Part shown: positions 8,630-41,766 of the stretch, one piece after another
Layout of the letters: the number at the start of each line of letters is the position of its first letter
Numbering within the stretch: the stretch's first letter is position 1
From: an uncultured Eubacteriales bacterium
GTDB taxonomy: Bacteria > Bacillota > Clostridia > Christensenellales > Aristaeellaceae
Length of the DNA stretch: 44,219 bases
Reading direction: 5' to 3'
Assembly: GCA_902773515.1 (NCBI GenBank)
Contig: CACYET010000001.1
Location: forward strand, 1 to 44,219
The notes under the pieces: model-generated
The model's database searches: none
What the model saw: only the letters and a program-made list of their open reading frames with translations
Told to the model about the DNA's origin: nothing
Program-made: the position numbers and the translations under genes

Positions 8630-8665
8630 CCGCCAACCATGAGGAAACTCGTGGTTGGCTTATAT

Positions 8666-8742: not shown

Positions 8743-8744
8743 GC

Positions 8745-8774
8745 GCGCGCCATCCCTGAGGGATGGCGCGCTTT
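8745..8774 (+). terminator. Terminator after the tRNA pair
   Basis: gcgcgccatccc-tga-gggatggcgcgc, a 12-bp stem followed by TTT. Confidence 0.65.
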
Positions 8775-8784
8775 CCTATGTGTT

Positions 8785-9786: not shown

Positions 9787-9871
9787 GCGCCTCGCCTCGC
9801 TTTCCGAATCCATTATACATCATTTCGACGGGAAGCGCCAGATAAAATAGCGTGAAATGCGGCAGCCGCTA

Positions 9872-9904
9872 TTCCTGTTCCCTGTTCCCTGTTCCCTCTC
9901 CCCT
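9872..9904. repeat. Heptad tandem repeat (TTCCCTG-type), family C
   Basis: ttcctgttccctgttccctgttccctctcccct with 7-nt period, in the divergent intergenic region. Confidence 0.75.
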
Positions 9905-13539: not shown

Positions 13540-13546
13540 GGAGTAG
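13518..13546. repeat. Heptad repeat (GGGAGTA-type), family C, overlapping the last codons and stop of the MFS gene
   Basis: gggagagggaatagggagtagggagtag. Confidence 0.7.
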
Positions 13547-13553
13547 AAATAGT

Positions 13554-24518: not shown

Positions 24519-26012
24519 TCACTCCACTTTCCTCAAAAATCGCATTGCTTCCGTTTCGCCGCGGAGCATGCGGTTGAGGTCGACGATGAAATCGCCGAGG
24601 GCGTCGGTAGCCTGGTAGAGGGAGCGGTCGGTGGTGAATACGTCGCCGGTCTTCACCGCCCTGAAGTCGGCAAACAGCGGGCTCTTCTTCAGAAGGTCGG
24701 CCACGCTTTCGAGCGGCGCGTCGATGGCGCCGTTGTAGATCAGGCAGTCGGCGTCCACGGCGACGGCGTAGAAGTCCTCCATGCTGACGGACACCGACGC
24801 GCGCGCGCCCTGCCCCGCCAGCGCCCGGTCGAAGGCGTAGCGGCCCCCGGCCAGCGCGATCATGCCGGCCACGTAGTCGTCCGGGCCGCGCACCACCACG
24901 CCGCCGTCCGTGGCGACGTAGAAGAACGCCACGGTCTTCTCAGCGTCCGGAAAGTCCTCCAGCGCGTCGACGGCGGCGGCCTGCGCGTCGAAGAACGCCT
25001 CGGCCTCGGCCTCGCGGTCCAGCAGCGCGCCGTAGAGCTTCACCCACTCGGTGCGCCCCAGCGGGTGCGCCTCGTAGCTGGAGCGCTCCACCAGCACCGG
25101 GATGCCCAGCGCCTCCAGCATCTCGCGCACCTTCGGCGCGTGCAATATCATCGTGGATTCGAGCGCCAGGTCGCAGCCGCCGTCCAGCAGCAGCTCGTAG
25201 TCCGGCTCGCTGTACTTGCCCGCGTAGAGGATGTCGCCCCGGCGCATCGCGTCGGCGGCGCTCTCCACGGTCCAGCCGTCCGCGCGCGTGCCGGAGAAGC
25301 GCACCGCGTCCAGCGCGTCCAGCGCGTCGAACAGCGCCATGGCCGCCGTGGCCGCGAGGTACACCTTATCCAGCGGCTGGCGCAGCACGCGCACGCCGCC
25401 GTCCAGCCCGTCCGGGACCGCGCCGCCCTCCGGCACCACCAGATAGCGCGCGCCGTCCGCGAGGGTCAGCAGCTTATAGCCGCCGTCGTAGTAGTCGACG
25501 GCGAACTGGCGGGCGTAGCGCAGCGGCAGCTCCCGCCGCCACGCGAGCCCGGGGATGTCCCGCGCGCGCGCGCCGAGGTCGACGGCCTCCCCCGCGTCCG
25601 CCGGGGCCACGTCCGGCTCCGCCTGCGGGGCGTCCTCGCCCAGGTAGATGTGCAGCGTGTACTCGATGTCGTGCGGCGCGGACATGGCCGTGGTGGTCGC
25701 GACGACGGTGAAGTCCGCGTTGACGGGCGCGGGCACCTCGAACACGGACGCGTCGCTTTCGCGCGCCGGGGCGTATGCCGCGCCGTCCAGCACCAGTTTG
25801 GAGTAGTTCGGGCTGGAGAACGTCAGCGTGGCGAACGCCGTCCCGCCCCGGACGACGAGCTTCGGGCAGGAGATGGTCACGCGGCCGCTGCCGCCGGAGA
25901 ACGCGAAGCCGTCCGGCGCGTATTCGCCGTCCGGCAGGCCGCCCTCCGCGAGCGCCGCCGCGCCGACGGCCAGCGCCAGCGCCAGAAGCAGGGCCAGTAT
26001 CCGACCGCGCAT
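24519..26012 (-). CDS. Secreted ABC-transporter substrate-binding protein (Fe-siderophore/haem/B12 type) with an extra N-terminal domain of about 110 aa
   Basis: Start MRGRILALLLALALAVGAAALA at 26012 after GGGAGGGGAG. The C-terminal 330 aa have the layout of a Peripla_BP_2-type binding protein (YARQFAVDYYDGGYKLLTL...VYLAATAAM...). No permease or ATPase gene is adjacent. Confidence 0.8.
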   Translation of the reverse strand: MRGRILALLLALALAVGAAALAEGGLPDGEYAPDGFAFSGGSGRVTISCPKLVVRGGTAFATLTFSSPNYSKLVLDGAAYAPARESDASVFEVPAPVNADFTVVATTTAMSAPHDIEYTLHIYLGEDAPQAEPDVAPADAGEAVDLGARARDIPGLAWRRELPLRYARQFAVDYYDGGYKLLTLADGARYLVVPEGGAVPDGLDGGVRVLRQPLDKVYLAATAAMALFDALDALDAVRFSGTRADGWTVESAADAMRRGDILYAGKYSEPDYELLLDGGCDLALESTMILHAPKVREMLEALGIPVLVERSSYEAHPLGRTEWVKLYGALLDREAEAEAFFDAQAAAVDALEDFPDAEKTVAFFYVATDGGVVVRGPDDYVAGMIALAGGRYAFDRALAGQGARASVSVSMEDFYAVAVDADCLIYNGAIDAPLESVADLLKKSPLFADFRAVKTGDVFTTDRSLYQATDALGDFIVDLNRMLRGETEAMRFLRKVE

Positions 26013-26153
26013 GCGCCTCACTCCCCTCCCGATCCTTTCCTCTATTATACATGACATGTTTGGAATGTCAAAGGAAAAGGGCGGCGATAAAATGAATACC
26101 GGTGAAAAATACAGTGAAGAGTGGCGTGCCAACTGAAACAGGATATCAGGAGA

Positions 26154-26288
26154 ACCAGATTGCCACGTCACCCCTGCGGGGTTCCTCGCAATGACATACA
26201 CCGAGGCGCAACCGAACAACGTCATTGCGAGGAGGGGAGGGTCGATCATCGTCAGATGATTCAACCCTCCCCGACGTGGCAATCTGGT
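26154..26288. repeat. Family D palindromic element (CCAGATTGCCACGTC...CCTCGCAATGAC / GTCATTGCGAGG...GACGTGGCAATCTGG)
   Basis: Arms 26154-26195 and 26221-26288 are reverse complements at both their outer and inner ends. Confidence 0.8.
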
Positions 26289-26297
26289 CTTTCACCA

Positions 26298-26366
26298 TTC
26301 CTGCTCCCTACTGCCTACTCCCTACTCCCTACTCCCTACTCCCTACTGCCTGCTCCCTACTCCCTG
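26298..26366. repeat. Heptad repeat tract (TCCCTAC / TGCCTAC), about 9 units, family C
   Basis: ttcctgctccctactgcctactccctactccctactccctactccctactgcctgctccctactccctg. It ends at the Dabb stop codon. Confidence 0.85.
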
Positions 26367-26654
26367 TCAATAATGATCAAACGTCGCCTTGTCCGCGACG
26401 CGATCGAGGATCTTGTCGCGCAGCTTTTCCACCAGCGGGAGTGCCTGGTACTCCTTCACCTGCGCCTCGCTTTCCAGCTCAAAGCTGGCCATCAGGTCGT
26501 AGCTGGACTCGGTGCCCTTGCAGCAGCGGCAGATGTTCGGCTTGTTCAGCCAGTCCAGCTCGTCGTCCAGCTTGCGAAAGGTCTTCCAGATCCGCTCCTG
26601 GATCTCCACCGGGTCCGTGTCCGGCTTCAGCTTGATGAGCATGATGTGTTTCAT
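26367..26654 (-). CDS. Dabb (stress-responsive alpha/beta-barrel) domain protein
   Basis: MKHIMLIKLKPDTDPVEIQERIWKTFRKL... RBS AAAAGGAGGG. About 95 aa with an unusual CRCC cluster. Confidence 0.75.
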   Translation of the reverse strand: MKHIMLIKLKPDTDPVEIQERIWKTFRKLDDELDWLNKPNICRCCKGTESSYDLMASFELESEAQVKEYQALPLVEKLRDKILDRVADKATFDHY

Positions 26655-26671
26655 GGGATTCCCTCCTTTTC

Positions 26672-27973
26672 TCAGATCCGGCACTCCGCCTCTCCGAGGT
26701 CCAGGCCCTCGTTGAACCTCCGGGCGTTTTCAAGGGTCTCGGCGGCGATGGCCTGCAGGGCTTCGCGGGTGAAGAACGCCTGGTGCGAGGTCATCACCAC
26801 GTTGGGGAACATCTGCAGCCGCGCCGTGACGTCGTTGTTCAGGAATTCGGTGGAGCGGTCGGTGTACACGTTGTCGTCCTCGCCCTCGTACACGTCCAGC
26901 CCCACGGCGTGGAACTTGCCGTTCTTGAGGGCCTCGATCAGCGCCTCGGTGTCGATCAGGCCGCCGCGCGCGGTGTTCACCAGCATGGCGGTGTCCTTCA
27001 TCCGGGCGATGGCCGCCGCGTCGATCAGGTGCCAGGTGCCGCCCGGGCCCGCGATCAGCGGCGCGTGCAGCGAGATCAGGTCCGCGCGCTCCAAGAGCTC
27101 GTCCCTGTCCACGTAGGTCAGCAGCCCCTCCTCCTCCAGCGCCGGGTTCGGGAAGGCGTCCCACGCGAGCACCGTCATGCCGAAGCCTTTGCAGATGCGG
27201 GCCATGCACTGGCCGATCTTGCCCGTGCCCAGGATGCCGGCCACCTTGTTGTGCAGGTCCACGCCCAGCAGGCCCGACAGCGCGAAGTTGTTGTCACGCA
27301 CCTTGTTCACGGCCTTGTGCAGGCGGCGGTTGGCGGTCATGATCAGGCTCATGGCGTGCTCGGCCACGGCGTAGGGCGAGTAGGCCGGCACGCGCGCCAC
27401 CTTGATGCCGCACTCCTTCGCGGCCTGCAGGTCCACGTTGTTGAAGCCCGCGCAGCGCAGCAGGATCAGCTTCACGCCGCAGTCCTTGAGCGTCTCCACC
27501 GCCTCGCGGGGCAACTCGTCGTTCACGAACACGCACACCGCGTCGAAGCCCCGCGCCAGGTTCGCCGTCTCCGGCGTCAGGCGGCAGCTGTAGTACTTGA
27601 TATCGCAGTTGTAGGTGCCCTCGCCGCGATCCTTCGCCAGCTCGCTGAAGAACAGGCGATCGTAGTCCTTGGTGCCGAAGAAGGCGATGCGCATCACGTC
27701 CGTCCGGCGCTTGTCCCGCAGCTTTTCGCACAGCACGCGGCGCACCTCGTTCAGCGCGGCCTGCTCGTCGCCGCCCTCGGCGACGATCTCCAGCACCGAG
27801 CCCTTCACGGCGTGCAGCGCCAATATCTCCAGCACGTTGGACCCGCTGGCGGATTTGCCGTTGTACCTGACGGTGATCTGCGAGGACAGGTTCACGCACG
27901 CCTGGGCCAGGAAGGCCGCGGGCCGCGCGTGCATCCCCAGCGTGTTTTGGACTTCAAAGGTCATCGTGGTCAT
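26672..27973 (-). CDS. Fusion protein: HPr-like PTS phosphocarrier domain (aa 1-85) plus D-lactate dehydrogenase (LdhA-type 2-hydroxyacid dehydrogenase, aa 94-433)
   Basis: N-terminus MTTMTFEVQNTLGMHARPAAFLAQ... has the His-15 motif G-x-HARPA. A linker RDKRRTDV leads to MRIAFFGTKDYD...LRCAGFNNVDL...GTGKIGQ...TSHQAFFT. There is no stop between the two parts. RBS AAGGAG lies 8 nt before the ATG at 27973. Confidence 0.85.
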   Translation of the reverse strand: MTTMTFEVQNTLGMHARPAAFLAQACVNLSSQITVRYNGKSASGSNVLEILALHAVKGSVLEIVAEGGDEQAALNEVRRVLCEKLRDKRRTDVMRIAFFGTKDYDRLFFSELAKDRGEGTYNCDIKYYSCRLTPETANLARGFDAVCVFVNDELPREAVETLKDCGVKLILLRCAGFNNVDLQAAKECGIKVARVPAYSPYAVAEHAMSLIMTANRRLHKAVNKVRDNNFALSGLLGVDLHNKVAGILGTGKIGQCMARICKGFGMTVLAWDAFPNPALEEEGLLTYVDRDELLERADLISLHAPLIAGPGGTWHLIDAAAIARMKDTAMLVNTARGGLIDTEALIEALKNGKFHAVGLDVYEGEDDNVYTDRSTEFLNNDVTARLQMFPNVVMTSHQAFFTREALQAIAAETLENARRFNEGLDLGEAECRI

Positions 27974-28056
27974 GGGCGAGTCTCCTTGTCGTTCTGTTTT
28001 GCGTCTTTGCCCGACGATCGGTATTCTTCCAAACCAATACGCCGTCCATACCCAAA

Positions 28057-28132
28057 CGTACAGATTCTTCGCTTTGCTCAGAATGACAGGCGTGCCGCGG
28101 TGTCATCCTGAGCGCAGCGAAGGATCTGTACG
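28057..28132. repeat. Family B palindromic element between ptsI and the HPr::LDH gene
   Basis: cgtacagattcttcgctttgctcagaatgaca...tgtcatcctgagcgcagcgaaggatctgtacg. Confidence 0.9.
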
Positions 28133-28156
28133 CATCGCTTTGGAATTGTTCGGAAA

Positions 28157-29836
28157 TCAGATCGCGTTCTCGTCTCCGAGCAGGTCCGCGAGCACCTTCT
28201 CCTTCACGTCGGACAGGGTGACCTCGCGGATCTTCTGCCGCAGGGGCAGCACGCTGCGCGGGGAGACGGACAGCTCGTCGATGCCGATGGAGAGGAAGGT
28301 CTCCGTCAGCTCGAGGTCCGCGCCCAGCTCGCCGCAGATGCCGACCCACACGCCGTTCTTGTGCGCGTTGTCGCACACCATCTTCAGAAGGCGCAGCACG
28401 GCCGGGTGATGCGGGTTGAAGAAGCGGCCCAGGTCGTTGTTCTGGCGGTCGCAGGCCAGCGTGTACTGGGTCAGGTCGTTCGTGCCGCAGGAGAAGAAGT
28501 CCACCAGCTTGGCCAGCCGGTCGCTCATCACCGCCGCGGCGGGCGTCTCGATCATGATGCCGATCTCCACGTCGTCGGCGTACGGCTTGCCCTCGGCGTC
28601 CAGCTCCTTCTTCACGATCTCGCACATCTTGCGGGCTTCCTTGACCTCCCACACGCTGGTGACCATCGGGAACATGATGCCCAGGTGGCCGTAGGCGGAG
28701 GCGCGGTAGAGCGCGCGCAGCTGGGTCTTGAAGATCTCAGGCCGGTTCAGGCAGATGCGCAGCGCGCGGTTGCCCAGCGCCGGGTTCTCCTCCTTGGGCA
28801 TCTGGAAGTAGTCGATCTGCTTGTCCGCGCCGATGTCCAGCGTGCGGATGACGACCTCCTTGTCGCCCATGTCGGAGAGCACCTGCTTGTAGGCCTCGAA
28901 CTGGTATTCCTCGGTCGGATAGTCGTCGCAGTTCAGGTAGAGGAACTCGGAGCGGAACAGGCCCACGCCGCCGCCGTCGTTCGCCAGCACCATCGCCACG
29001 TCCTCGGGGTTGCCGATGTTGCAGAACACCTTGATCTTGTGGCCGTCCTTGGTGATGTTCTCCTCGCCCTTCAACTGCTCCAGCAGCTTCTGGCGCTTGA
29101 GCTGTTCCTCGCGCTTGGCCATCATCACGGTGCGGGTGGCCTCGTCGGCGTCCACCACGATGCTGCCGGTGCCGCCGTCCACGATCACCTCCCGGCCCTC
29201 GTACTCGGCCTTCAGCTGGTTGCCCACGCCGATGATGGCGGGAATGCCCATCGTGCGGGCCAGGATCGCGGTGTGGCTGGAGCCGCTGCCGCCCTCGGTG
29301 ATGAAGCCGAGGATCTTGCTCTTGTCCAGCTGCACGGTCTCCGACGGAGCCAGGTCGTCCGCCGCCAGCACCACCGGCACATCGCTGTCGATGCCGCCCT
29401 GCACGACGCCTGTGAGGATGCCCACGATGCGCCCGGACACGTCCTTCACGTCCGCGGCGCGCGCCTGCATGTAGGTGTCGTCCATCTGGGCGAACATGTC
29501 GGCGAACTGGGCCGCGGTGTCGGTGACGGCCGCCTCGGCGTTCAGCTTTTCTTCCTTAATAAGGCCCTCGATGGCCTCCACGTAGTCGTCGTCCTCGGCC
29601 ATCATCTGGTGGGTTTCAAACAGGAACGCGGCCTCCGCGCCGGCCTCGGCCTCGGCCTTCTGGGCCAACTCGCCCAGCTGCTCGATGGCCTTCGCCTGCG
29701 CGTCCTTGAAGCGCTCCCACTCGGCGCTCGCGTCCTCCACCTGATAGCGGCGGATGGTGCTCTTGGCCCGCTGATAGAAATAGAGCGGCCCCATGGCCAC
29801 GCCGGTGGATACGCCCTTGCCCTGGATTGAGATCAT
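28157..29836 (-). CDS. ptsI: Phosphoenolpyruvate-protein phosphotransferase (PTS enzyme I)
   Basis: MISIQGKGVSTGVAMGPLYF...GGSGSSHTAILARTMGIPA (active-site His)...FFSCGTNDLTQY. The ATG at 29836 lies 8 nt after GGAG. Confidence 0.95.
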   Translation of the reverse strand: MISIQGKGVSTGVAMGPLYFYQRAKSTIRRYQVEDASAEWERFKDAQAKAIEQLGELAQKAEAEAGAEAAFLFETHQMMAEDDDYVEAIEGLIKEEKLNAEAAVTDTAAQFADMFAQMDDTYMQARAADVKDVSGRIVGILTGVVQGGIDSDVPVVLAADDLAPSETVQLDKSKILGFITEGGSGSSHTAILARTMGIPAIIGVGNQLKAEYEGREVIVDGGTGSIVVDADEATRTVMMAKREEQLKRQKLLEQLKGEENITKDGHKIKVFCNIGNPEDVAMVLANDGGGVGLFRSEFLYLNCDDYPTEEYQFEAYKQVLSDMGDKEVVIRTLDIGADKQIDYFQMPKEENPALGNRALRICLNRPEIFKTQLRALYRASAYGHLGIMFPMVTSVWEVKEARKMCEIVKKELDAEGKPYADDVEIGIMIETPAAAVMSDRLAKLVDFFSCGTNDLTQYTLACDRQNNDLGRFFNPHHPAVLRLLKMVCDNAHKNGVWVGICGELGADLELTETFLSIGIDELSVSPRSVLPLRQKIREVTLSDVKEKVLADLLGDENAI

Positions 29837-29863
29837 ATACATCGCTCCTTTCACTCGCTCAGG

Positions 29864-29981
29864 GAGTAGGGAGAAGGGAGTAGGGAGTAGGAAAAGCAAC
29901 TGGCTGCCATGAAAATCCGACAGAATTGGCGGCAGCAATTCACTATTCCTACTGCCTACTCCCTACTGCCTACTCCCTCAT
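29864..29981. repeat. Inverted pair of heptad-repeat tracts (GGGAGTA arm and TACTCCC arm) forming a long hairpin between EIIBCA and ptsI
   Basis: gggagtagggagaagggagtagggagtagg (29864-29893) and ttcctactgcctactccctactgcctactccctc (29948-29981). Confidence 0.8.
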
Positions 29982-30020
29982 TACTTCACATACGTTGGAA
30001 TCGAACTGAGAGGAATGTAG

Positions 30021-31865
30021 TTATTTCGCCCCAAACTCCACGCCGTCGAGGTCGTCGGAGTTGGTCAGCAGCACGGCCACGGTGTCGCTGTAGCCGGCGG
30101 CCTTGATCTTCTCGCGGCTGAAGCGGATCAGCGGCTGGCCCGCCTTCACCTGGTCGCCCTCGGCCACCAGGCACTCGAAGCCGTCGCCGTTCATGGCCAC
30201 GGTATCCACGCCCACGTGGATCAGCAGCTCCATGTCGTTGGCGGAGAGGCCCACCGCGTGCTTGCTGTCGGCCACGGAGCTGATCTCGCCGTCGAACGGC
30301 GCGACCACCACTTCATTCGTCGGCTCGATGCCAACGCCCTGGCCCAGCACGCCGGAGGCGAACGTGTCGTCCGGGATCTGGTCGTAGGGGATCACGTTGC
30401 CCTCGACCGGCTGCAGCACCGTGCCGTTGGCGCAGCGGATGACCGACACCGTGGGCGGTGCGACCTGCGCCGGCGCGGGCGCCGCCGCCACGGGCTTGGG
30501 CGCATCTTCCTTCCAGATCACCGTCGTCACGAAGAAGGCGACGCCCGCGGAGATGACCAGCTCGATGCAGTAGATCGGGATGTTGTTGATGGCCAGCAGG
30601 CCGGGGATGCCGGTGACGCCGTAGGTGGTGGCGCCCAGGTGGGTCAGCGAGCCGAACAGCGCGCCGACCGCGCCGCCGATGACGCCCGCGATAAAGGGCT
30701 TCATGAAGCGGAAGTTCACGCCGAAGATGGCGGGCTCGGTGATGCCCAGCGACGCGGACAGCGAGGAGGGCAGCGCCACGGACTTCAGCTTCTTGTTGCG
30801 GCACTTCAGGGCCACCGCCAAGCAGGCGCCGAACTGCGCGAAGTTCGCGGCCGAGGCGATGGGCATCCAGATGTTCAGGCCCAGCGCGCCCGATAGCATG
30901 CCGGCCTCGATGACGTTGTACATGTGGTGCAGGCCCATGACGACCGTCCAGGGGTAGATCGCGCCCATGATCAGCGCGCCGATGCCGCCCGTGGAAGTCA
31001 CCAGCCACTCGGCGCCGGTCAGCACCCAATTCTCAAGCACCGAGAAGATGGGGCCGATGACCACGAACGTGGCGAAGGCCGTGACCAGCACCGTCACCAG
31101 CGGGGTGACGAACAGGTCGATCATCTCCGGCACCTTCTTGTGCAGCCACTTCTCCACCGTGGACATCAGGAGCACCGCCAGTATGACCGGTATGACGTGG
31201 CCCTGATAGCCCACCTGCGAGATCTTGAAGATGCCCAGGTCCCACACGGCGGGCTGGTTGGTGGGCGTGACGGTCCAGGCGTTCATCAGGCCGGGATGCA
31301 CCATCATCATGCCGATGACGCCGCCGAGGAACAGGTTGCCGCCGAACACGCGGGCCGCCGAGACGGCCACCAGGATGGGCAGCAGCGCGAAGGCCGTGTT
31401 GGCCACGAGGTCGAGGAAGCCGAACCAGCCGCTCTCCGCGAAGGAGGGAATGGCCTTGGCCAGCGCCTCCACCAGGCCCATCATCAGGCCGGAGGCCACG
31501 ATGGCGGGCAGGATGGGCACGAACACGTCGCCCGGGGTCTTCAGGATCTTCTTCCACAGGGGCATCTTGCTGGCCGCGGCGGCCTTGACGTCGGCCTTCG
31601 TGGCGGCGGACGCGCCCGTGACGGACAGGAATTCGTCGTAGACCTTGTTGACGGTGCCGGTGCCGATGATCAGCTGCAGCTGACCGTTGCTCTCAAACAT
31701 GCCCTTGACGCCGTCGATGTTCTCCAGCACTTCCTTGTTGACCTTGCTGTTGTCGGCAATGACCAGCCTGAGTCGGGTTGCGCAGTGGGCCGCGCTGATG
31801 ACGTTCGAGCCGCCGCCGATGTTGGCGGCGATCTGTTCAGCGCATTTGCGATAGTCCAGTGCCAT
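30021..31865 (-). CDS. PTS sugar transporter EIIB-EIIC-EIIA (glucose/sucrose/beta-glucoside superfamily; sugar unknown)
   Basis: EIIB SAAHCATRLRL; EIIC with about 10 TM helices and GITEPAIFG; Pro/Ala linker; EIIA-Glc SKHAVGL...LIHVGVDTV. Confidence 0.92.
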   Translation of the reverse strand: MALDYRKCAEQIAANIGGGSNVISAAHCATRLRLVIADNSKVNKEVLENIDGVKGMFESNGQLQLIIGTGTVNKVYDEFLSVTGASAATKADVKAAAASKMPLWKKILKTPGDVFVPILPAIVASGLMMGLVEALAKAIPSFAESGWFGFLDLVANTAFALLPILVAVSAARVFGGNLFLGGVIGMMMVHPGLMNAWTVTPTNQPAVWDLGIFKISQVGYQGHVIPVILAVLLMSTVEKWLHKKVPEMIDLFVTPLVTVLVTAFATFVVIGPIFSVLENWVLTGAEWLVTSTGGIGALIMGAIYPWTVVMGLHHMYNVIEAGMLSGALGLNIWMPIASAANFAQFGACLAVALKCRNKKLKSVALPSSLSASLGITEPAIFGVNFRFMKPFIAGVIGGAVGALFGSLTHLGATTYGVTGIPGLLAINNIPIYCIELVISAGVAFFVTTVIWKEDAPKPVAAAPAPAQVAPPTVSVIRCANGTVLQPVEGNVIPYDQIPDDTFASGVLGQGVGIEPTNEVVVAPFDGEISSVADSKHAVGLSANDMELLIHVGVDTVAMNGDGFECLVAEGDQVKAGQPLIRFSREKIKAAGYSDTVAVLLTNSDDLDGVEFGAK

Positions 31866-32159
31866 ATCTCTTTTCCCCCTTACTTTGGTTCGCCGGCGGT
31901 CCGAGCATCATTTTGCAATGTATTCGTCATAACCACCATTGATTGATTCCTATTTTACTATATCCCGGCCGAATTGTAAAGCGCTTGGGCGCTTTTGTCT
32001 TGTTTTCGTTAAAGAACGCATACCATTGTTAACGTTTTCCGTGCCAAATCGGGGGTTGGCGCTTTACATACTTTACAGAATTGCAATCTACTGTTATAAT
32101 GCAGTCAGAGGGTCGGCCCTCGCATCCGATCAAAATCCATCCATCAAGGGGGAAAGACC

Positions 32160-33923
32160 ATGAAGAAACTGCTTTCCATCGTCCTCGCCGCCATACTGGT
32201 GCTGGCGCTCGGCGCGCTGGCCGAGGACGGCAAGATCACCTCGACCGGCGTCGGCCAGGGCATCGACGGAGACGTGAAGGTGCAGGTCGTCGCCGACGCC
32301 ACCACGATCTATTCCGTGGAGGTGCTCGAACAGAACGAGACGCCCGGCATCGGCTCCGTGGCCGTGGAACAGCTGCCCGGCCAGATCGTCGAGGCCAACA
32401 GCATCCTCGTGGACAGCATCTCCGGCGCGACCGTGACCAGCGACGCCATCAAGACGGCGGTGCGCCAGGCGCTCGAGGACGGCGGGCTGGACGTGTCCGT
32501 GTTCGAGGTGGAGCAGGCGGCCGCGGAGGTCGCCGAGAAGACGCCCGAGACGCTGGATTGCGACGTGGTGATCGTCGGCGCGGGCGGCGCGGGCCTGACC
32601 GCGGCGGTGCGCGCCAACCAGGCGGGCGCGAAGGTGCTCGTGCTGGAGAAGATGTCGTTCGTCGGCGGCAACAGCCTGAAGGCCTCCGGCGGCATGAACG
32701 CCGCGGGCACGAAGTTCCAGGAGGCGCTGGGCATCACCGACAGCGGCGTGCGGGAGTTCGTCGAGGACACGATGAACGGCGGCCACATGATCAACGACCT
32801 GGCCCTCGTGGTGACCATGTCGGAAAACAGCTCCGACGCCGTGGACTGGCTCGAATCCATCGGCGCGCCGCTGCCGAAGGTGGCGGCCACCGGCGGCACC
32901 GTGCACAAGTACCTGCACTCCCCGGAGGACGGCAGCCCCGTCGGCGCGTACCTGGTGGCCAAGCTGAACGAGGAAGTCGAGAAGCAGGGCATCCAGGTCA
33001 TGCTGAACACGAAGGCCACCGAGATCCTGACGGACGAGGGCTGCGCGGTGGGCGTGAAGGCCGAGGACGCCGAGCACGAATACACCATCAACGCCCACGC
33101 GGTCATACTCGCCACCGGCGGCTTCGGCTCGAACTTTGAGCTGATGACCAGCTTCAACCCGAGCCTGGCCAACGCGGTGACCACCAACCATCCCGGCGCC
33201 ACCGGCGACGGCATCCTGATGGCCGAGGCCATCGGCGCCGCCACCGTGGACATGGACCGCATCCAGCTGCATCCCACCGTGTACCAGGAGACCAGCACGC
33301 TGGTCTCGGAGAAGATGCGCTCGCTGGGCGCGATCCTGGTCAACCAGGAGGGCAAGCGCTTCTGCAACGACCTGTCCACCCGCGACGCCGTCTCCGCGGC
33401 GGAGCTGGAGCAGACCGGCGGCTACGCCTACATCATCTTCGACCAGAACCTGGTGGACCAGAACAAGTCCGCCAAGGAGTACATCAGCAAGGGCATGACC
33501 TCCACCGGCGAGACCTACGAGGAGCTGGCGAAGAACATGGGCCTCGAGGGCGACGCCGTGGCGGCCTTTGAAGAGACCATGGCCACCTGGAACGAGGCCG
33601 TGGCCACCGGCGAGGACAAGGAGTTCGGCCGCAACAACGGCATGGACGCCGACCTGTCCACCGCGCCCTACTACGCCATCAAGATCGCCCCCGGCATCCA
33701 CCACACGATGGGCGGCATCAAGATCGACACCGCCACGCAGGTGCTCGACACCGAAGGCAACGTGATCCCCGGCCTGTACGCGGCCGGCGAGACCACCGGC
33801 GGCGTGCACGGCGGCAACCGCATCGGCGGCAACGCCGTGTGCGACTTCGTGGTGTTCGGCCGCATCGCCGGCGAGAAGGCCGCGGCGTACGCGGAGACCT
33901 TCGCCCTGCAACCGGCGGCGTAA
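32160..33923 (+). CDS. Secreted flavoprotein reductase: FMN_bind (flavinylation) domain plus an FAD-dependent fumarate/urocanate-reductase-family catalytic domain
   Basis: Signal peptide MKKLLSIVLAAILVLALGALA. FMN_bind with DSISGATVTS (32421-32432). FAD fold DVVIVGAGGAGLTAA; HHTMGGI; GLYAAGETTGGVHGGNRIGGNA. Confidence 0.9.
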   Translation: MKKLLSIVLAAILVLALGALAEDGKITSTGVGQGIDGDVKVQVVADATTIYSVEVLEQNETPGIGSVAVEQLPGQIVEANSILVDSISGATVTSDAIKTAVRQALEDGGLDVSVFEVEQAAAEVAEKTPETLDCDVVIVGAGGAGLTAAVRANQAGAKVLVLEKMSFVGGNSLKASGGMNAAGTKFQEALGITDSGVREFVEDTMNGGHMINDLALVVTMSENSSDAVDWLESIGAPLPKVAATGGTVHKYLHSPEDGSPVGAYLVAKLNEEVEKQGIQVMLNTKATEILTDEGCAVGVKAEDAEHEYTINAHAVILATGGFGSNFELMTSFNPSLANAVTTNHPGATGDGILMAEAIGAATVDMDRIQLHPTVYQETSTLVSEKMRSLGAILVNQEGKRFCNDLSTRDAVSAAELEQTGGYAYIIFDQNLVDQNKSAKEYISKGMTSTGETYEELAKNMGLEGDAVAAFEETMATWNEAVATGEDKEFGRNNGMDADLSTAPYYAIKIAPGIHHTMGGIKIDTATQVLDTEGNVIPGLYAAGETTGGVHGGNRIGGNAVCDFVVFGRIAGEKAAAYAETFALQPAA

Positions 33924-34203: not shown

Positions 34204-35556
34204 ATGGTGAAGCGCACCTTTCGCGGCGGCGTTCATCCCGACGGTCACAAGGAGCTGAGCCGGGAAGTGCCTCTGCGCGAATTCCTGCCGGCGGGAGAAA
34301 TGGTGTTCCCGCTGTCCCAGCACATCGGCAAGCCCGCCAAGCCCATCGTGAAGAAGGGCGACGCGGTGCTGGTCGGCCAGAGGATCGCGGAGGCGGACGG
34401 CTATGTGTCCGCGCACATCGCGTCCTCCTGCTCCGGCGTGGTCAAGGCCATCGAGAAGCGCCTGACGCTCATGGGCGCGTTGGCGGACTGCATCGTGGTG
34501 GAGAACGACGGCCAGTTCACGCCCGCCGAGGGCTTCGGCGAGCGCGAGGAGCAGGCGAGCCTGTCCAACGACGAGATCCTTCGCCGCATACAGGACGCCG
34601 GCGTGGTGGGCCTGGGCGGCGCGGGCTTCCCGACCCACGTGAAGCTCAAGCCGAAGGACCCCGCGGCCATCCGCTACGTCATCGCCAACGGCGCGGAGTG
34701 CGAGCCCTACCTGACCTGCAACGATCAATTGATGCGCGTCAAGGCGAACGAGATCGTGGAGGGGCTGGAGCTGGTGCTGCAGCTGTTCCCGAACGCCGAG
34801 GGCGTGATCGGCATCGAGGACAACAAGCCGGTGGCCATCGCCGCGATGAAGCAGGCCGCTCACGGCAAGCCCCGCCTGCGCGTGATGGAGCTGCAGACGA
34901 AGTACCCGCAGGGCGGCGAGCGCAGCCTGATCCAGGTGATCGCCGGGGTGGACTTCCCCATCTCGATGCTCCCGGCGGACGTGGGCTGCGTGGTGGACAA
35001 CGTGGGCACGCTCTACGCCATCCAGCGCGCCGTGCTCTACCGCGAGCCGCTGTTTTCCCAGTGCTTTACGCTCACCGGCGAGGCCGCGAAGAACCCCGGC
35101 AACTTCATCGTCCGCGACGGCACCTCGTTTGCGGAGCTGCTCGAGTTCGCGGGCGGCCTGAAGGACGGCGTGACGCTTAAAAAGGCGCTGGTCGGCGGCC
35201 CGATGATGGGCATCGCGCTGGGCAGCCTGGACGTGCCGATCCAGAAGCAGAACAACGGCCTGACGCTGATGGACGAGGACCCCGTGGAGCTGGCCGAGGC
35301 CCAGATGACGGCCTGCCTGCGCTGCGGGCGCTGCGCGAAGGTCTGTCCCGTGGGCCTGCTGCCCGAGCCGATGGCCGACGCCGCGCTCAGCAAGGACTAC
35401 GAGCGCTATGAAAAGAAGCTCTACGGCCTGGAGTGCATCCAGTGCGGCAGCTGCACCTACAACTGCCCGGCCAAGCGCCCCCTGATGCAGATCTTCAAGG
35501 AGGCCAAATCTGAAATACAGGCGCGCAAGCGCGCAGAGGCGGGAGGCACAAAATGA
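34204..35556 (+). CDS. rnfC: Rnf complex subunit C (NADH-binding/FMN, 2x[4Fe-4S])
   Basis: MVKRTFRGGVHPDGHKELS...GLGGAGFPTHVKL...ANGAECEPYLTCNDQLM...CLRCGRCAKVCP...CIQCGSCTYNCP. RBS GGAGGGGAG. Confidence 0.95.
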   Translation: MVKRTFRGGVHPDGHKELSREVPLREFLPAGEMVFPLSQHIGKPAKPIVKKGDAVLVGQRIAEADGYVSAHIASSCSGVVKAIEKRLTLMGALADCIVVENDGQFTPAEGFGEREEQASLSNDEILRRIQDAGVVGLGGAGFPTHVKLKPKDPAAIRYVIANGAECEPYLTCNDQLMRVKANEIVEGLELVLQLFPNAEGVIGIEDNKPVAIAAMKQAAHGKPRLRVMELQTKYPQGGERSLIQVIAGVDFPISMLPADVGCVVDNVGTLYAIQRAVLYREPLFSQCFTLTGEAAKNPGNFIVRDGTSFAELLEFAGGLKDGVTLKKALVGGPMMGIALGSLDVPIQKQNNGLTLMDEDPVELAEAQMTACLRCGRCAKVCPVGLLPEPMADAALSKDYERYEKKLYGLECIQCGSCTYNCPAKRPLMQIFKEAKSEIQARKRAEAGGTK

Positions 35557-37133
35557 ACAACGCGCTGAATATCTCCTCCAGCCCCCATGTAAGGGACAAG
35601 CGCACGACCGCGTACATGATGCGCGTCGTGCTGCTGGCGCTGATGCCCGCGACGGTCGTGGGCGTATGCAACTACGGCCTGCACGCGCTGCTGGTGGTGC
35701 TGGTAAGCGTCGCCGCGGCGGTGCTGAGCGAATTCGCGTTTGACAAGCTCTGCCACAAGCCGGACACCTGGAAGGACGGCAGCGCGGCGGTCACGGGCCT
35801 TCTGCTGGCGCTGTGCCTGTCGCCCCGGGTGCCGCTGACGATGCCGCTGCTGGGCAGCATGTTCGCGATCCTGATCGCCAAGTGCTGCTTCGGCGGCCTG
35901 GGCAAGAACTTCATCAACCCCGCCCTGGCCGGTCGGTGCTTCCTGCTGATCTCGTTCGGCAACCTGATGTCCACCTACAGAGTCGTAGACGGCGTGACCG
36001 CGGCCACCCCGGTGGCGGACCTGCTGGCCGGGAACCCGGTCAACGTCACGCGGATGTTCCTGGGCACCACGTCCGGCGTCATCGGCAGCTCCGCGCTGGC
36101 GCTGCTGGCGGGCGGCCTGGCGCTGTGGGCCCTGCAGATCATCCACGGCGAGATCTGCTTCTCGGTGCTGGGCACGTTCATACTGACGGTCGGGCTGTTC
36201 GGCGGCCAGGGCTTTGACCCCCGCTTCATCCTCGCCCACATCAGCGGCGGCGGCGTGCTGATGGCCGCGTTCTTCATGGCCACCGACTACGTCACCTCCC
36301 CCGCCACCCCGCTGGGCCAGCTGGTGTACGGCCTGCTGATCGGATTCCTCGGCGGCATCTTCCGCCTGTTCAGCGGCACCGCCGACTCCTTCAGCTACTG
36401 CGTGATCACCGGCAACCTGTTCGTGCCGCTGATCGACACCTATATCGTCTCCAAGCCCTACGCCTACCGGAAGGTCTCGCTGCTCAAGCAGCTGCGGGCC
36501 TCCGGCGAGCCCTGGTACAAGCGCGTGCCGCGCCCGGTGATCGTGCTGACGGCCATCGCCGCCATCGCGGGCCTGGCGCTCTCCGGCGTCTACTTCATGA
36601 CCAAGGACACCATCGACAACCAGAAGCGCGCCGCGCAGGCCGCCTCCTACAAGGCGGTGTGCCCGCTGGCGGACCACTTTGAGGCCGACGAAACCATCGA
36701 CAAGGCCGTGGCCGACCTGAACGGCGCCGTGTACGGCACCGACTTCGGGCGCGCCCACATCAACGAGGGCTTTGCGGCCCTGGACGAGGGCGGCAACAAC
36801 GTCGGCTACGCCTTCAGCGTCACCAGCGCCGACGGCTTTGACGGCAACGTCACGCTGGCCGTGGGCGTGGACAATGAAGGCGCGGTGACGGGCATCTCCT
36901 TCACCGAGCTGAACGAGACCCCCGGCATGGGCATGCGCGTGGACGAGCCGGAGTTCAAGGACCAGTTCACCGGCAAGGCCGTGTCGAAGTTCACGCTGAA
37001 CAAGGCGGGCGGCTCCACCGCGGACGATCAGATCGACAGCGTCTCCGGCGCGTCCACCACGTCCGGCGCGGTGGTCAACGCCGTCAACGCCGCCCTCGAC
37101 TTCTACAACAACACGGTGAAGGGGGGAGCCTGA
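35553..37133 (+). CDS. rnfD: Fused Rnf subunits D and G in one 526-aa ORF
   Basis: aa 1-~315 are RnfD (SSSPHVRD...GKNFINPALAGR...FFMATDYVTSP...VPLID). A TM helix VIVLTAIAAIAGLALSGVYF follows, then an RnfG FMN_bind domain ending DSVSGASTTS (37044-37055). There is no stop between the two parts. Confidence 0.88.
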   Translation: MNNALNISSSPHVRDKRTTAYMMRVVLLALMPATVVGVCNYGLHALLVVLVSVAAAVLSEFAFDKLCHKPDTWKDGSAAVTGLLLALCLSPRVPLTMPLLGSMFAILIAKCCFGGLGKNFINPALAGRCFLLISFGNLMSTYRVVDGVTAATPVADLLAGNPVNVTRMFLGTTSGVIGSSALALLAGGLALWALQIIHGEICFSVLGTFILTVGLFGGQGFDPRFILAHISGGGVLMAAFFMATDYVTSPATPLGQLVYGLLIGFLGGIFRLFSGTADSFSYCVITGNLFVPLIDTYIVSKPYAYRKVSLLKQLRASGEPWYKRVPRPVIVLTAIAAIAGLALSGVYFMTKDTIDNQKRAAQAASYKAVCPLADHFEADETIDKAVADLNGAVYGTDFGRAHINEGFAALDEGGNNVGYAFSVTSADGFDGNVTLAVGVDNEGAVTGISFTELNETPGMGMRVDEPEFKDQFTGKAVSKFTLNKAGGSTADDQIDSVSGASTTSGAVVNAVNAALDFYNNTVKGGA

Positions 37134-41737: not shown

Positions 41738-41766
41738 TCCCCTACTCCCTACTCCCTGCTCCCTAA
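41738..41766. repeat. Heptad repeat (TACTCCC-type), family C, abutting the resB start codon
   Basis: ttcccctactccctactccctgctcccta. Confidence 0.75.

What the first reader, a model, noticed from the sequence alone, without database searches (positions are those of the whole stretch)
26672..27973. HPr phosphocarrier domain fused in-frame to D-lactate dehydrogenase
The ORF begins with an 85-aa HPr-like module. It has the GMHARPA His-15 phosphorylation motif and a GKSASGSNVLEIL region where the Ser-46 loop normally sits. It continues without a stop through RDKRRTDV into a full LdhA-type D-2-hydroxyacid dehydrogenase (MRIAFFGTKDYD...GTGKIGQ...TSHQAFF). It lies directly downstream of ptsI and a PTS EIIBCA gene, and no separate ptsH is present in the operon. 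Enzyme I turns PEP into pyruvate each time it phosphorylates HPr. Tethering an NADH-dependent pyruvate reductase to HPr would place LDH at the site of pyruvate release, coupling sugar uptake to NAD+ regeneration. I know of no described HPr-LDH fusion.
Basis: partly seen in the sequence, partly recalled or inferred. Interest (0 to 1): 0.68.

Follow-up and report, generated by a model that had tools for sequence, protein, structure and literature searches.

The report
Conserved HPr–D-lactate dehydrogenase fusion protein
This is a real, widely conserved gene in rumen and gut Firmicutes that joins a sugar-transport phosphocarrier module (HPr) to a fermentative D-lactate dehydrogenase; databases already list it, nobody appears to have studied it, and it most likely lets the sugar-uptake signal control lactate production directly.

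Summary
Window 26672..27973 (minus strand) is one 433-aa ORF. Residues 4-80 pass the HPr profiles, and residues 94-433 form a complete LdhA-type D-lactate dehydrogenase.

It is not an assembly artefact:
- More than 120 protein clusters and 66 species genomes carry the same architecture. They include Lachnospiraceae, Oscillospiraceae, Erysipelotrichaceae, Selenomonadaceae and Eubacterium, with cultured Mitsuokella multacida, Selenomonas bovis and Faecalibacillus among them.
- The junction codon that is ATG in the window is a non-start codon in 59 of 63 relatives.
- Both modules are under purifying selection and have diverged together.

His15 and Arg17 are invariant. Position 46 is never Ser, so there is no HprK site.

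The ptsI/EIIBCA neighbourhood exists only in the window's immediate clade, and elsewhere the gene stands alone.

RefSeq already names the family [quoted passage not shown]. I found no paper on it.

My best reading (inferred) is a D-LDH with a built-in PTS-state sensor. Enzyme I phosphorylates His15, and the phosphorylation state tunes an allosteric-type LdhA. Pyruvate channelling is less likely.

This is a catalogued but uncharacterised variant of moderate interest.

The parts
26672..27973 (-). Complete HPr-D-LDH fusion ORF (433 aa plus TGA stop)
   Evidence: ORF listing and sequence. Three Pfam domains lie in one ORF. The same architecture is found in >=120 protein clusters and 66 genomes.
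27719..27973 (-). HPr phosphocarrier module, aa 1-85 (beta-alpha-beta-beta-alpha-beta-alpha fold)
   Evidence: PF00381 scores 69.9 bits and TIGR01003 63.6 bits, both above their cut-offs. AF2 pLDDT is 90-96 with HPr-like secondary structure. dN/dS is 0.04-0.19 in most clades.
27929..27931 (-). His15 codon (CAC), the predicted phospho-acceptor; part of the G13-x-H15-A16-R17-P18 motif
   Evidence: G13, H15, A16 and R17 are invariant in 64/64 full-length fusions, and P18 in 63/64. Codon verified.
27836..27838 (-). Asn46 codon (AAC) at the position of the HprK/P target Ser46 of canonical Firmicute HPr
   Evidence: Position 46 is N in 54, D in 8 and R in 2 of 64 sequences, never Ser. Position 45 is variable.
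27695..27718 (-). Interdomain linker, aa 86-93 (RDKRRTDV): variable in sequence, constant in length
   Evidence: E70-to-A97 spacing is 27 residues in 53/64 sequences despite low sequence conservation. AF2 pLDDT for this block is about 83.
27692..27694 (-). Internal ATG (Met94) at the start of the LDH module; not a conserved start site
   Evidence: The equivalent codon in 63 relatives is CTG 26, CTC 14, TTA 9, CTT 6, TTC 4, ATG 2, TTG 2.
26675..27694 (-). LdhA-type NAD-dependent D-lactate dehydrogenase module, aa 94-433. GxGxxG at G249-G254; catalytic R336, E365 and H397 (codons 26966-26968, 26879-26881, 26783-26785).
   Evidence: PF00389 and PF02826 match. The best solved relatives are the P. 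aeruginosa, E. coli, Salmonella and F. nucleatum D-LDHs, with E about 1e-96 and 46-49% identity. E365 and H397 are invariant and R336 is conserved in >=90% of A1. dN/dS is 0.00-0.06 in most clades.
27982..27987 (-). Shine-Dalgarno AAGGAG, 8 nt upstream of the ATG at 27973
   Evidence: Read directly from the sequence.
28157..29842 (-). ptsI (Enzyme I), upstream on the same strand. The probable start is ATG 29842, preceded by AAAGGAG.
   Evidence: TIGR01417 scores 611.9 bits, and all three PEP-utiliser domains match. Next to the fusion only in the window, L001, L002 and L004.
30021..31865 (-). PTS EIIBCA permease of the sucrose/beta-glucoside/trehalose (Glc superfamily) type; first gene of the putative operon
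   Evidence: PTS_EIIB, EIIC and EIIA_1 domains match. The match to TIGR01996/TIGR01995 falls below the equivalog cut-offs, so specificity is unassigned.
31952..31980 (-). Promoter-like site (TTTACA-17-TAAAAT) upstream of the EIIBCA gene
   Evidence: Consensus scan only. No minus-strand terminator-like site was found between ptsI and the fusion gene.
26367..26654 (-). Dabb (stress-responsive alpha/beta-barrel) gene immediately downstream. The probable start is ATG 26654 with AAGGAGG, 17 nt after the fusion's stop.
   Evidence: PF07876 scores 40.2 bits. Found downstream of the fusion only in L001-L004 and L063. Start inferred from the sequence and from the tblastn alignments, which begin at query residues 6-11.

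Best explanation
The gene encodes one polypeptide. An HPr-type phosphocarrier module is joined to a fermentative, NADH-dependent, LdhA-type pyruvate reductase (D-lactate dehydrogenase). A short linker of fixed length connects them.

Shown here:
- The fusion is real and arose once.
- It is inherited and horizontally spread as a unit among rumen and gut Bacillota.
- In most lineages it is obligatorily translated as a fusion.
- It keeps the HPr phospho-acceptor His15 and Arg17, and the LDH catalytic Arg/Glu/His and NAD motif, under purifying selection.
- It lacks the Ser46 HprK/P site.

Inferred mechanism:
- The HPr module is a built-in sensor of PTS state.
- Enzyme I phosphorylates His15 from PEP, so the fraction of phosphorylated module tracks the PEP:pyruvate ratio and PTS sugar flux.
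- The phosphorylation state then changes the activity or cooperativity of the attached D-LDH, whose closest characterised relatives are allosteric tetramers.
- The most plausible polarity is LDH active when the module is unphosphorylated (abundant sugar, high pyruvate) and restrained when it is phosphorylated (sugar limitation). That would switch pyruvate between lactate overflow and more ATP-yielding routes.

In the window's own clade the gene has additionally come to lie behind an EIIBCA-ptsI pair. There the module may also serve as that operon's phosphocarrier.
For: Real and recurrent:
- All 120 listed homologue clusters (70-93% identity) carry PF00381, PF00389 and PF02826.
- 66 species genomes carry a full-length match.
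- The exact window protein sits in a 16-member cluster drawn from independent assemblies.

Obligate fusion:
- The junction codon is not an initiator in 59/63 relatives.
- A strong SD precedes the HPr start.

Single origin:
- Pairwise distances of the two modules correlate (r = 0.89), with HPr evolving 2.2 times faster.

Functional HPr module:
- G13, H15, A16 and R17 are invariant.
- The helix-2 surface (N46, V47, L48, L51, L53) is conserved.
- dN/dS is 0.04-0.19 in most clades.
- AF2 pLDDT is 90-96.

Functional LDH module:
- The catalytic triad and GxGxxG are conserved.
- It is 46-49% identical to the solved D-LDHs of P. aeruginosa, E. coli, Salmonella and F. nucleatum. The P. aeruginosa, E. 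coli and F. nucleatum enzymes are tetrameric and allosteric, with diverse homotropic and heterotropic regulation (PMC4230899).

Sensor rather than transport component:
- No PTS genes lie within 10 kb in about 60 of 66 genomes.
- The gene appears monocistronic in Mitsuokella and Lachnospiraceae.
- Linker length is fixed at 27 residues between E70 and A97 in 53/64 sequences, which suggests a defined geometry.

Precedent for HPr controlling enzymes at this node in trans:
- V. vulnificus dephospho-HPr and pyruvate kinase A (PMC5987630).
- E. coli HPr phosphorylating and allosterically regulating glycogen phosphorylase (PMC13324651).
- HPr and LsrK (PMC5983913).
Against: - No experiment or structure shows that the phosphorylation state affects the LDH.
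- I could not obtain interdomain confidence (PAE) or coordinates from the model, so docking of the His15 face on the LDH is untested.
- I could not search whole genomes. It is therefore unknown whether fusion-bearing organisms also have a canonical ptsH, ptsI or an unfused ldhA.
- In the window's clade the fused module is the only HPr in a complete EII-EI-HPr gene set. That fits a true carrier role at least there.
- Eight of 64 members have Asp46. From my own knowledge, this substitution mimics Ser46 phosphorylation in canonical HPr and weakens phosphorylation by Enzyme I. That questions EI-dependence in the Eubacterium F2/saphenum clade.
- dN/dS of the HPr module is elevated (0.26-0.61) in the window's own clade.
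Confidence: 0.5

Rival explanations
1. The fused module is the working general phosphocarrier of the PTS. Tethering LDH to it places pyruvate reduction next to Enzyme I, where PEP becomes pyruvate. This couples sugar uptake to NAD+ regeneration by proximity or channelling.
For: - In the window, L001, L002 and L004 the gene order is EIIBCA-ptsI-fusion, with no other HPr in 44 kb.
- His15, Arg17 and the helix-1/helix-2 surface that canonical HPr uses for EI and EIIA are conserved.
- No minus-strand terminator-like site lies between ptsI and the fusion.
Against: - PTS adjacency is absent from about 60 of 66 genomes, including sister genomes at 87% identity. There the fusion abuts the Rnf operon directly. 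The fusion therefore predates, or exists independently of, that context.
- Pyruvate leaves Enzyme I, not HPr, and the EI-HPr complex is transient. From general knowledge, simple proximity gives little channelling for a small diffusible metabolite.
- A tetrameric 47-kDa-subunit enzyme is an awkward general carrier for multiple EIIA partners.
- The Asp46 variants would be poor EI substrates (own knowledge).
Confidence: 0.17
2. Covalent control. The phosphorylated HPr module passes its phosphoryl group, in cis or across subunits, to a residue of the LDH module. Free HPr does this to glycerol kinase in Firmicutes and to E. coli glycogen phosphorylase. That modification would switch the enzyme.
For: - There is precedent for HPr-to-enzyme histidine phosphorylation (PMC13324651; GlpK from own knowledge).
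- Relative to E. coli and P. aeruginosa LdhA, the family has inserted loops with invariant or nearly invariant glycines. These are around residues 116-119 (G117 nearly invariant, G119 invariant) and 308-312 (G309 and G312 invariant).
- His355 is nearly invariant in the family but is not His in the two LdhA sequences aligned.
Against: - No acceptor residue has been identified.
- I have no interdomain geometry.
Confidence: 0.13
3. The HPr module no longer takes part in phosphotransfer. It serves as a structural, oligomerisation or partner-binding appendage of the LDH, or is a slowly decaying relic.
For: - The HPr module evolves 2.2 times faster than the LDH module.
- dN/dS reaches 0.4-0.6 in the window's clade.
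- Ser46 is lost, and Asp46 or Arg46 occur in some clades.
Against: - G13, H15, A16 and R17 are absolutely conserved across 64 sequences whose HPr modules are up to 69% divergent. That is hard to explain without a role for the phospho-acceptor site.
- dN/dS is well below 1 in every comparison.
- No member has lost the module: all 120 listed clusters keep it.
Confidence: 0.1
4. Artefact. Two adjacent genes (ptsH and ldhA) were joined by a sequencing or assembly error, or by a recent stop-codon loss. Alternatively, only the internal ATG at 27694 is used.
For: - The window does have an ATG exactly at the module boundary.
- The contig is metagenome-derived.
Against: - The same uninterrupted frame occurs in 66 genomes. 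These include complete genomes of cultured strains: M. multacida DSM 20544 and Eubacterium sp. F2.
- The M. multacida protein is seen on >=1000 contigs.
- The boundary codon is Leu or Phe with non-initiator codons in 59/63 relatives.
- No AGGAGG-like SD precedes the internal ATG (flank), whereas AAGGAG precedes the HPr start.
Confidence: 0.01

Closest known systems
RefSeq/UniProt-catalogued 'fused HPr family phosphocarrier protein/2-hydroxyacid dehydrogenase' (e.g. Mitsuokella multacida WP_005841882.1 = EEX68352.1 = UniProt C9KNY1; Selenomonas bovis WP_019542623.1)
   Same: - Identical architecture and length (432-435 aa).
- 62-97% identity over the full length.
- The same invariant His15/Arg17 and LDH catalytic residues.
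- The window's gene is a member of this family.
   Different: - Only the window's immediate clade has the EIIBCA-ptsI genes upstream and the Dabb gene downstream.
- The family has a database name only. I found no functional study.
Allosteric tetrameric LdhA-type D-lactate dehydrogenases of E. coli, P. aeruginosa and F. nucleatum (PDB 3wx0/5z1z, 5z20, 5z21; PMC4230899); also Salmonella D-LDH (PDB 4cuj)
   Same: - 46-49% identity over the whole LDH module.
- The same fold (Foldseek TM 0.82-0.87 normalised to the target).
- The same catalytic Arg/Glu/His and NAD motif.
   Different: - Those enzymes have no N-terminal extension.
- Here an 85-aa HPr module plus linker precedes strand 1.
- There are short family-specific insertions around residues 110-119 and 308-310 (alignment).
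Free HPr acting on metabolic enzymes in trans: V. vulnificus PykA (PMC5987630), E. coli glycogen phosphorylase (PMC13324651), LsrK (PMC5983913), and Firmicute glycerol kinase (own knowledge)
   Same: The proposed logic is the same. The phosphorylation state of His15 reports sugar availability and modulates an enzyme of central carbon metabolism.
   Different: - Here sensor and target are one polypeptide.
- The target is a fermentative dehydrogenase.
- No effect on activity has been demonstrated.
Multidomain PTS proteins containing an HPr domain (FruB/DTP EIIA-HPr, MTP, DhaM)
   Same: An HPr-family domain with the active His is embedded in a larger polypeptide. NF008319 (FruB) and NF008478 (DhaM) give weak partial matches.
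   Different: Those fuse HPr to other PTS phosphotransfer domains (EIIA, EI-like). This ORF has no other PTS domain, and its partner is an oxidoreductase.

Membership tests
HPr phosphocarrier family (Pfam PF00381, NCBIfam TIGR01003) | Profile score above the curated cut-off | tested here: met
   PF00381 scores 69.9 bits against 23. TIGR01003 scores 63.6 bits against 47.9.
HPr phosphocarrier family (Pfam PF00381, NCBIfam TIGR01003) | Active-site His15 followed by Arg17 (G-x-H-x-R-P motif) | tested here: met
   GMHARP is present in the window. G13, H15, A16 and R17 are invariant in 64/64 family members.
HPr phosphocarrier family (Pfam PF00381, NCBIfam TIGR01003) | Open-faced beta-sandwich fold (four strands, three helices) | tested here: met
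   AF2 secondary structure is E2-7, H16-27, E32-37, E40-43, H47-51, E60-66, H70-85, with pLDDT 90-96.
HPr phosphocarrier family (Pfam PF00381, NCBIfam TIGR01003) | Phosphorylation of His15 by Enzyme I and transfer to EIIA | not testable with these tools
   Needs biochemistry. Only the conserved residues and, in this clade, an adjacent ptsI gene speak for it.
Firmicute regulatory HPr/Crh (HprK/P substrate, CcpA co-repressor) | Ser46 in the helix-2 N-cap as the HprK/P target | tested here: not met
   Residue 46 is Asn in the window. Across 64 members it is N in 54, D in 8 and R in 2, never Ser.
Equivalog HPr (PtsH PRK13780 / PRK10850) or NPr (PRK10897) | Score above the equivalog cut-off | tested here: not met
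   52.6 bits against 110, 46.8 against 153 and 45.5 against 119. This is an HPr-family module, not an orthologue of the curated PtsH or NPr models.
D-isomer-specific 2-hydroxyacid dehydrogenases, LdhA-type D-LDH | Catalytic plus NAD-binding domains above the Pfam cut-offs | tested here: met
   PF00389 scores 102.2 bits and PF02826 162.3 bits.
D-isomer-specific 2-hydroxyacid dehydrogenases, LdhA-type D-LDH | GxGxxG dinucleotide motif and catalytic Arg-Glu-His | tested here: met
   G249-T-G251-K-I-G254 is present. E365 and H397 are invariant and R336 is conserved in >=90% of A1.
D-isomer-specific 2-hydroxyacid dehydrogenases, LdhA-type D-LDH | Closest characterised relatives are D-LDHs, not other 2-hydroxyacid dehydrogenases | tested here: met
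   The top PDB sequence and fold matches are all D-LDHs (5z20, 3wx0, 5z1z, 4cuj, 5z21), with E about 1e-96 and 46-49% identity. Glyoxylate reductases, PGDH and CtBP score far lower.
D-isomer-specific 2-hydroxyacid dehydrogenases, LdhA-type D-LDH | NCBIfam D-LDH equivalog cut-off (PRK12480 / PRK08605) | tested here: not met
   185 bits against 579, and 180.8 against 356. Those models describe other D-LDH lineages.
D-isomer-specific 2-hydroxyacid dehydrogenases, LdhA-type D-LDH | Pyruvate as the preferred substrate with NADH | not testable with these tools
   Inferred from 46-49% identity to pyruvate-specific enzymes. The related F. nucleatum enzyme has broader specificity (PMC4230899).
VanH (vancomycin-resistance D-LDH) | Score above the vanH_gen cut-off | tested here: not met
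   221.7 bits against 540. No van genes are nearby.
Fused HPr / 2-hydroxyacid dehydrogenase family (RefSeq name) | HPr module then LdhA module in one ORF of about 432-435 aa, alignable end to end | tested here: met
   62-97% identity over residues 1-432 to 66 genomic loci. All 120 listed clusters share the three Pfam domains. The names are given.
Multiphosphoryl-transfer PTS proteins (FruB/DTP, MTP, DhaM) | HPr domain fused to EIIA and/or EI-type phosphotransfer domains | tested here: not met
   No EIIA, EIIB or PEP-utiliser domain lies in this ORF. FruB scores 41.2 bits against 302.

The most novel reading that the evidence does not exclude
The fusion hard-wires the phosphorylation state of the PTS to a fermentative dehydrogenase. 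His15 phosphorylation of the in-cis HPr module would act as an allosteric or covalent switch of D-lactate production. That would give rumen and gut Firmicutes (Mitsuokella, Selenomonas, Solobacterium, Faecalibacillus, many Lachnospiraceae) an instantaneous, transcription-independent way to turn lactate overflow on when sugar floods in. It would be the first case of an oxidoreductase carrying its own PTS sensor domain.
Probability: 0.4. Interest if true: 0.7.

Novelty: new variant of a known kind. Interest (0 to 1): 0.5.

Why it matters
If the HPr module controls the LDH, this family would be a direct post-translational link between sugar influx (the PEP:pyruvate ratio read by Enzyme I) and the pyruvate branch point.

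The organisms involved matter for rumen lactate accumulation and acidosis, and for human gut D-lactate production. The M. multacida version alone is seen on at least 1000 public contigs.

It would extend the list of HPr-regulated enzymes from partners acting in trans to a covalently fused dehydrogenase. It would also provide a compact, testable model of histidine-phosphorylation-dependent allostery. Two domains of known structure sit in one chain, and cultured hosts with complete genomes are available.

If the module instead works as the PTS carrier, it would be an unusual case of a general PTS protein carried on a tetrameric metabolic enzyme.

Either way, the family is abundant, named in databases and apparently unstudied.

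Tried and rejected
1. **Artefact or lost stop codon:** rejected by recurrence and by the junction codons.
2. **Conserved PTS operon context:** tested by tblastn of the window's PtsI, EIIBCA and Dabb into 66 loci, and by all-against-all clustering of neighbouring ORFs. No neighbour family occurs in more than 10 of 66 loci, and PTS genes occur in only 3 loci besides the window.
3. **Second HPr in the window or in the 20-kb loci:** none found with B. subtilis or E. coli HPr as queries.
5. **Interdomain docking from AlphaFold:** the tool returns pLDDT and pTM only, with no PAE or coordinates. I could not tell whether the His15 face packs on the LDH. Foldseek against the PDB found no entry covering both modules.
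6. **Exhaustive HPr-module search against 1.84 billion representatives:** this mostly returned contig-end fragments of the same fusion, ordinary about 88-aa HPrs and a few multidomain PTS proteins. No second kind of HPr-dehydrogenase fusion was evident among the best 150.
7. **Rfam scan of the operon (25900-32300):** only sub-threshold chance matches to the heptamer hairpin. No riboswitch or RAT-like element was found.
8. **Literature:** seven full-text searches combining HPr, phosphocarrier, D-lactate or 2-hydroxyacid dehydrogenase, fusion, Mitsuokella and Selenomonas found no paper on this architecture. One candidate paper (PMC9600882) concerns separate HPr genes, not a fusion.
9. **VanH identity:** this was the top NCBIfam hit by score, but it is rejected because it falls far below the cut-off.
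Full report
**1. What is there**

On the minus strand, 26672..27973 is a single ATG-to-TGA ORF of 433 aa. An AAGGAG Shine-Dalgarno lies 8 nt upstream of the ATG.

Pfam places three domains in it, all far above their gathering scores:
- PTS-HPr at residues 4-80 (69.9 bits, cut-off 23).
- The D-isomer 2-hydroxyacid dehydrogenase catalytic domain (102.2 bits).
- The NAD-binding domain (162.3 bits).

NCBIfam's HPr-family model is also passed, at 63.6 bits against 47.9. The gene is on the minus strand. Residue 46, the site of regulatory serine phosphorylation in Firmicute HPr, is Asn here, and the neighbouring Ser is residue 45.

**2. Is the fusion real?**

Yes.
- A search of 5.8 billion proteins returned 120 listed clusters at 70-93% identity. 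Every one carries PF00381, PF00389 and PF02826 at about 432-434 aa.
- A scan of one genome per prokaryotic species found 66 genomes with a full-length, uninterrupted match at 62-97% identity.
- These genomes are rumen and gut Bacillota of several families and classes: Lachnospiraceae, Oscillospiraceae, Erysipelotrichaceae (Solobacterium, Bulleidia, Faecalibacillus faecis and F. intestinalis), Selenomonadaceae (Mitsuokella multacida DSM 20544, M. jalaludinii, Selenomonas bovis, S. montiformis) and Eubacterium sp. F2. Some are complete genomes of cultured strains.
- The exact window protein belongs to a 16-member cluster from independent assemblies. The M. multacida protein is seen on at least 1000 contigs.

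It cannot be general. In 63 relatives that codon is CTG (26), CTC (14), TTA (9), CTT (6), TTC (4), ATG (2) or TTG (2).

The two modules have diverged together (r = 0.89 between pairwise distances), with the HPr part evolving 2.2 times faster. That indicates a single fusion event followed by inheritance and transfer as a unit. Clades defined by the LDH module mix bacterial classes. For example, Lachnospiraceae group with Erysipelotrichaceae, and Selenomonadaceae with Lachnospiraceae. This implies horizontal spread within gut and rumen communities.

**3. State of the two modules**

HPr module:
- G13, H15, A16 and R17 are invariant in 64 of 64 full-length sequences. P18 is present in 63 of 64.
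- The helix-2 surface (N46, V47, L48, L51, L53) and G58, G67 and E70 are conserved.
- Cys26 is present in 63 of 64, which is unusual for HPr.
- Position 46 is Asn (54), Asp (8) or Arg (2), never Ser. Asp46 is confined to the Eubacterium F2/saphenum clade plus L005.
- dN/dS is 0.04-0.19 in most clades, which is clear purifying selection. It is weaker than on the LDH module (0.00-0.06). In the window's own clade both values are higher: HPr 0.26-0.61 and LDH 0.11-0.26.

Linker:
- The linker is poorly conserved in sequence but constant in length. E70-to-A97 spacing is 27 residues in 53 of 64 sequences.

LDH module:
- Its best solved relatives are the fermentative D-LDHs of P. aeruginosa, E. coli, Salmonella and F. 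nucleatum (E about 1e-96, 46-49% identity).
- It keeps GxGxxG (G249-G254) and the catalytic R336, E365 and H397.
- Relative to E. coli and P. aeruginosa LdhA, it has short insertions around residues 110-119 and 308-310. Several glycines in or next to them are invariant or nearly invariant: G119, G309 and G312 invariant, G117 nearly so.

Structure:
- An AlphaFold2 model from a 67-sequence alignment has mean pLDDT 84.5 and pTM 0.74. The HPr module scores 90-96 and the linker block about 83.
- The tool gives no PAE or coordinates, so interdomain packing remains untested.
- No PDB entry covers both modules.

**4. Genomic context**

In the window the minus-strand order is as follows:
- a promoter-like site (31980..31952);
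- EIIBCA (30021..31865, sucrose/beta-glucoside/trehalose type, below the equivalog cut-offs);
- ptsI (28157..29842);
- the fusion;
- a Dabb gene, with a probable start at 26654.

No other HPr is encoded in the 44 kb.
- tblastn of the window's PtsI and EIIBCA into all loci finds them only in L001, L002 and L004.
- L003 and L063 are 87% identical in the fusion protein. There the fusion lies about 175 bp from the divergently transcribed Rnf operon, with no PTS genes.
- Window and L001 additionally carry a flavoprotein gene in the interval.
- Clustering all neighbouring ORFs shows no neighbour family in more than 10 of 66 loci.
- In Mitsuokella the gene sits between an SSF transporter gene and GGDEF genes, with intergenic gaps of about 180-200 bp. 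In a Lachnospiraceae contig it is flanked by genes on the opposite strand. Both look monocistronic.
- Faecalibacillus has a divergent lactate permease gene next to it.

So the fusion exists independently of any PTS operon. In the window's clade an EIIBCA-ptsI pair was either inserted next to it or lost from the sister lineage.

**5. How it most likely works**

Shown: this is a conserved, obligately fused protein with an intact phospho-acceptor site and an intact D-LDH active site.

Inferred: Enzyme I phosphorylates His15, and the module reports PTS state to the attached LDH. Four reasons favour regulation over channelling:
- There is no PTS linkage in most genomes.
- The fixed linker length suggests a defined geometry rather than a loose tether.
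- The LDH belongs to the LdhA clade whose characterised members are tetrameric and allosteric, with lineage-specific effectors (PMC4230899).
- Free HPr is already known to control enzymes around the PEP/pyruvate/glycogen node according to its phosphorylation state: V. vulnificus PykA (PMC5987630), E. coli glycogen phosphorylase by histidine phosphorylation and allostery (PMC13324651), and LsrK (PMC5983913).

The loss of Ser46 means the module is not part of the HprK/CcpA circuit.

The physiologically sensible polarity is LDH on when the module is unphosphorylated during sugar excess. This is my inference and is untested.

A covalent variant, with phosphotransfer to the LDH module, and a dual role as the operon's carrier in the window's clade both remain open.

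The channelling model is not excluded, but it is weaker. Pyruvate is released from Enzyme I, the EI-HPr encounter is transient, and proximity alone does little for a small diffusible metabolite (general knowledge).

**6. Comparison with what is known, and novelty**

The window's gene is a member of a family that RefSeq names 'fused HPr family phosphocarrier protein/2-hydroxyacid dehydrogenase'. UniProt lists it as 'Phosphocarrier protein HPr' (C9KNY1), and JGI calls it 'D-lactate dehydrogenase'. The architecture is therefore catalogued.

Seven full-text literature searches found nothing on its function.

It is not any of the following:
- a canonical PtsH or NPr equivalog;
- a Crh-like protein, since it has no Ser46;
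- a FruB-, MTP- or DhaM-type multiphosphoryl protein, since it has no other PTS domain;
- VanH.

I rate it a new, uncharacterised variant of a known kind: HPr-dependent control of metabolic enzymes, or PTS domains embedded in larger proteins. Interest is moderate at 0.5. It is abundant, cleanly testable and relevant to lactate overflow in the rumen and gut. It is not conceptually unprecedented, and the mechanism is unproven.

**7. Limits**

- I could not search the whole genomes of fusion-bearing organisms for a second ptsH, ptsI, hprK or ldhA.
- I could not get interdomain confidence from the structure prediction.
- I could not test any biochemical claim.

These are listed as the decisive next steps.

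Noticed in passing
window 26291-26365; 29861-29908 and 29931-29978; 13524-13547; 41741-41764: Tandem arrays of the heptamer AGGGAGT/ACTCCCT sit in intergenic regions: 18 matches to a 17-mer against 0.01 expected. Between the EIIBCA gene and ptsI, two inverted arrays form a hairpin with 48-nt arms. The 191-nt spacer folds at -82.7 kcal/mol (z = -7.6), and the hairpin lies just upstream of the ptsI SD. Another array lies right after the Dabb gene. This is a REP-like element of unknown role. It also inflates the ptsI ORF call by 32 codons.
   Followed up: partly
window ~28056-28133 (minus strand), in the 183-nt ptsI-fusion spacer: A second, unrelated and nearly perfect palindrome (ACGUACAGAUCCUUCGCUGCGCUCAGGAUGACA...UGUCAUUCUGAGCAAAGCGAAGAAUCUGUACGU) forms a long hairpin. 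The 201-nt spacer folds at -79.4 kcal/mol (z = -5.4). No U-tract follows, so it is not a canonical terminator. It could attenuate or stabilise the transcript entering the fusion gene.
   Followed up: partly
window 39284-41512 (+): A 742-aa protein combines an FMN_bind domain with a cytochrome c552 (NrfA-like multihaem) domain. It lies directly downstream of the Rnf operon. This is an unusual combination for a Clostridia-type genome.
   Followed up: no
window 32160-33923 (+) and 35553-37133 (+): The first is an FMN_bind + FAD_binding_2 flavoprotein (fumarate/urocanate-reductase-like). It lies between the PTS genes and the Rnf operon and is present only in the window and L001. The second is an RnfD-RnfG fusion (NQR2_RnfD_RnfE + FMN_bind) in one ORF.
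   Followed up: no
window 26367-26684 (-); L001-L004, L063: A Dabb (stress-responsive alpha/beta-barrel) gene follows the fusion. Its probable start is ATG 26654 with AAGGAGG, 17 nt after the fusion's stop. The pairing is conserved only in the window's clade, including the relatives that lack the PTS genes.
   Followed up: partly
L032, L036 and relatives (Faecalibacillus group), about 8298-9884 (-): A full-length lactate permease gene (PF02652, 393 bits) is transcribed divergently from the fusion gene in the Faecalibacillus clade. This links the fusion to lactate transport in that lineage.
   Followed up: partly
L031 (CAVESC010000123.1, labelled Bacteroidaceae): This contig carries a fusion gene and neighbours nearly identical to those of Faecalibacillus. 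The taxonomic label probably reflects a binning error rather than presence in Bacteroidota.
   Followed up: no
P0130 (87 aa), P0144, P0160: Standalone HPr-like proteins exist with the same Asn46 signature (…A-x-G-N-N-V-L-Q-[IV]-L…) as the fused module. An Asn46 HPr paralogue class therefore also occurs unfused and may be the source of the module.
   Followed up: no
P0147 (2681 aa, 8 matched stretches) and P0266 (2178 aa, 4 stretches): These are giant proteins with multiple partial HPr-like stretches, matching query residues about 10-52 only. Their nature is unknown.
   Followed up: no
window 27896-27898 (Cys26 codon): Cys26 on helix 1 of the HPr module is conserved in 63/64 fusion proteins but is not a feature of E. 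coli or B. subtilis HPr. It could be a contact residue or a redox-sensitive site.
   Followed up: no
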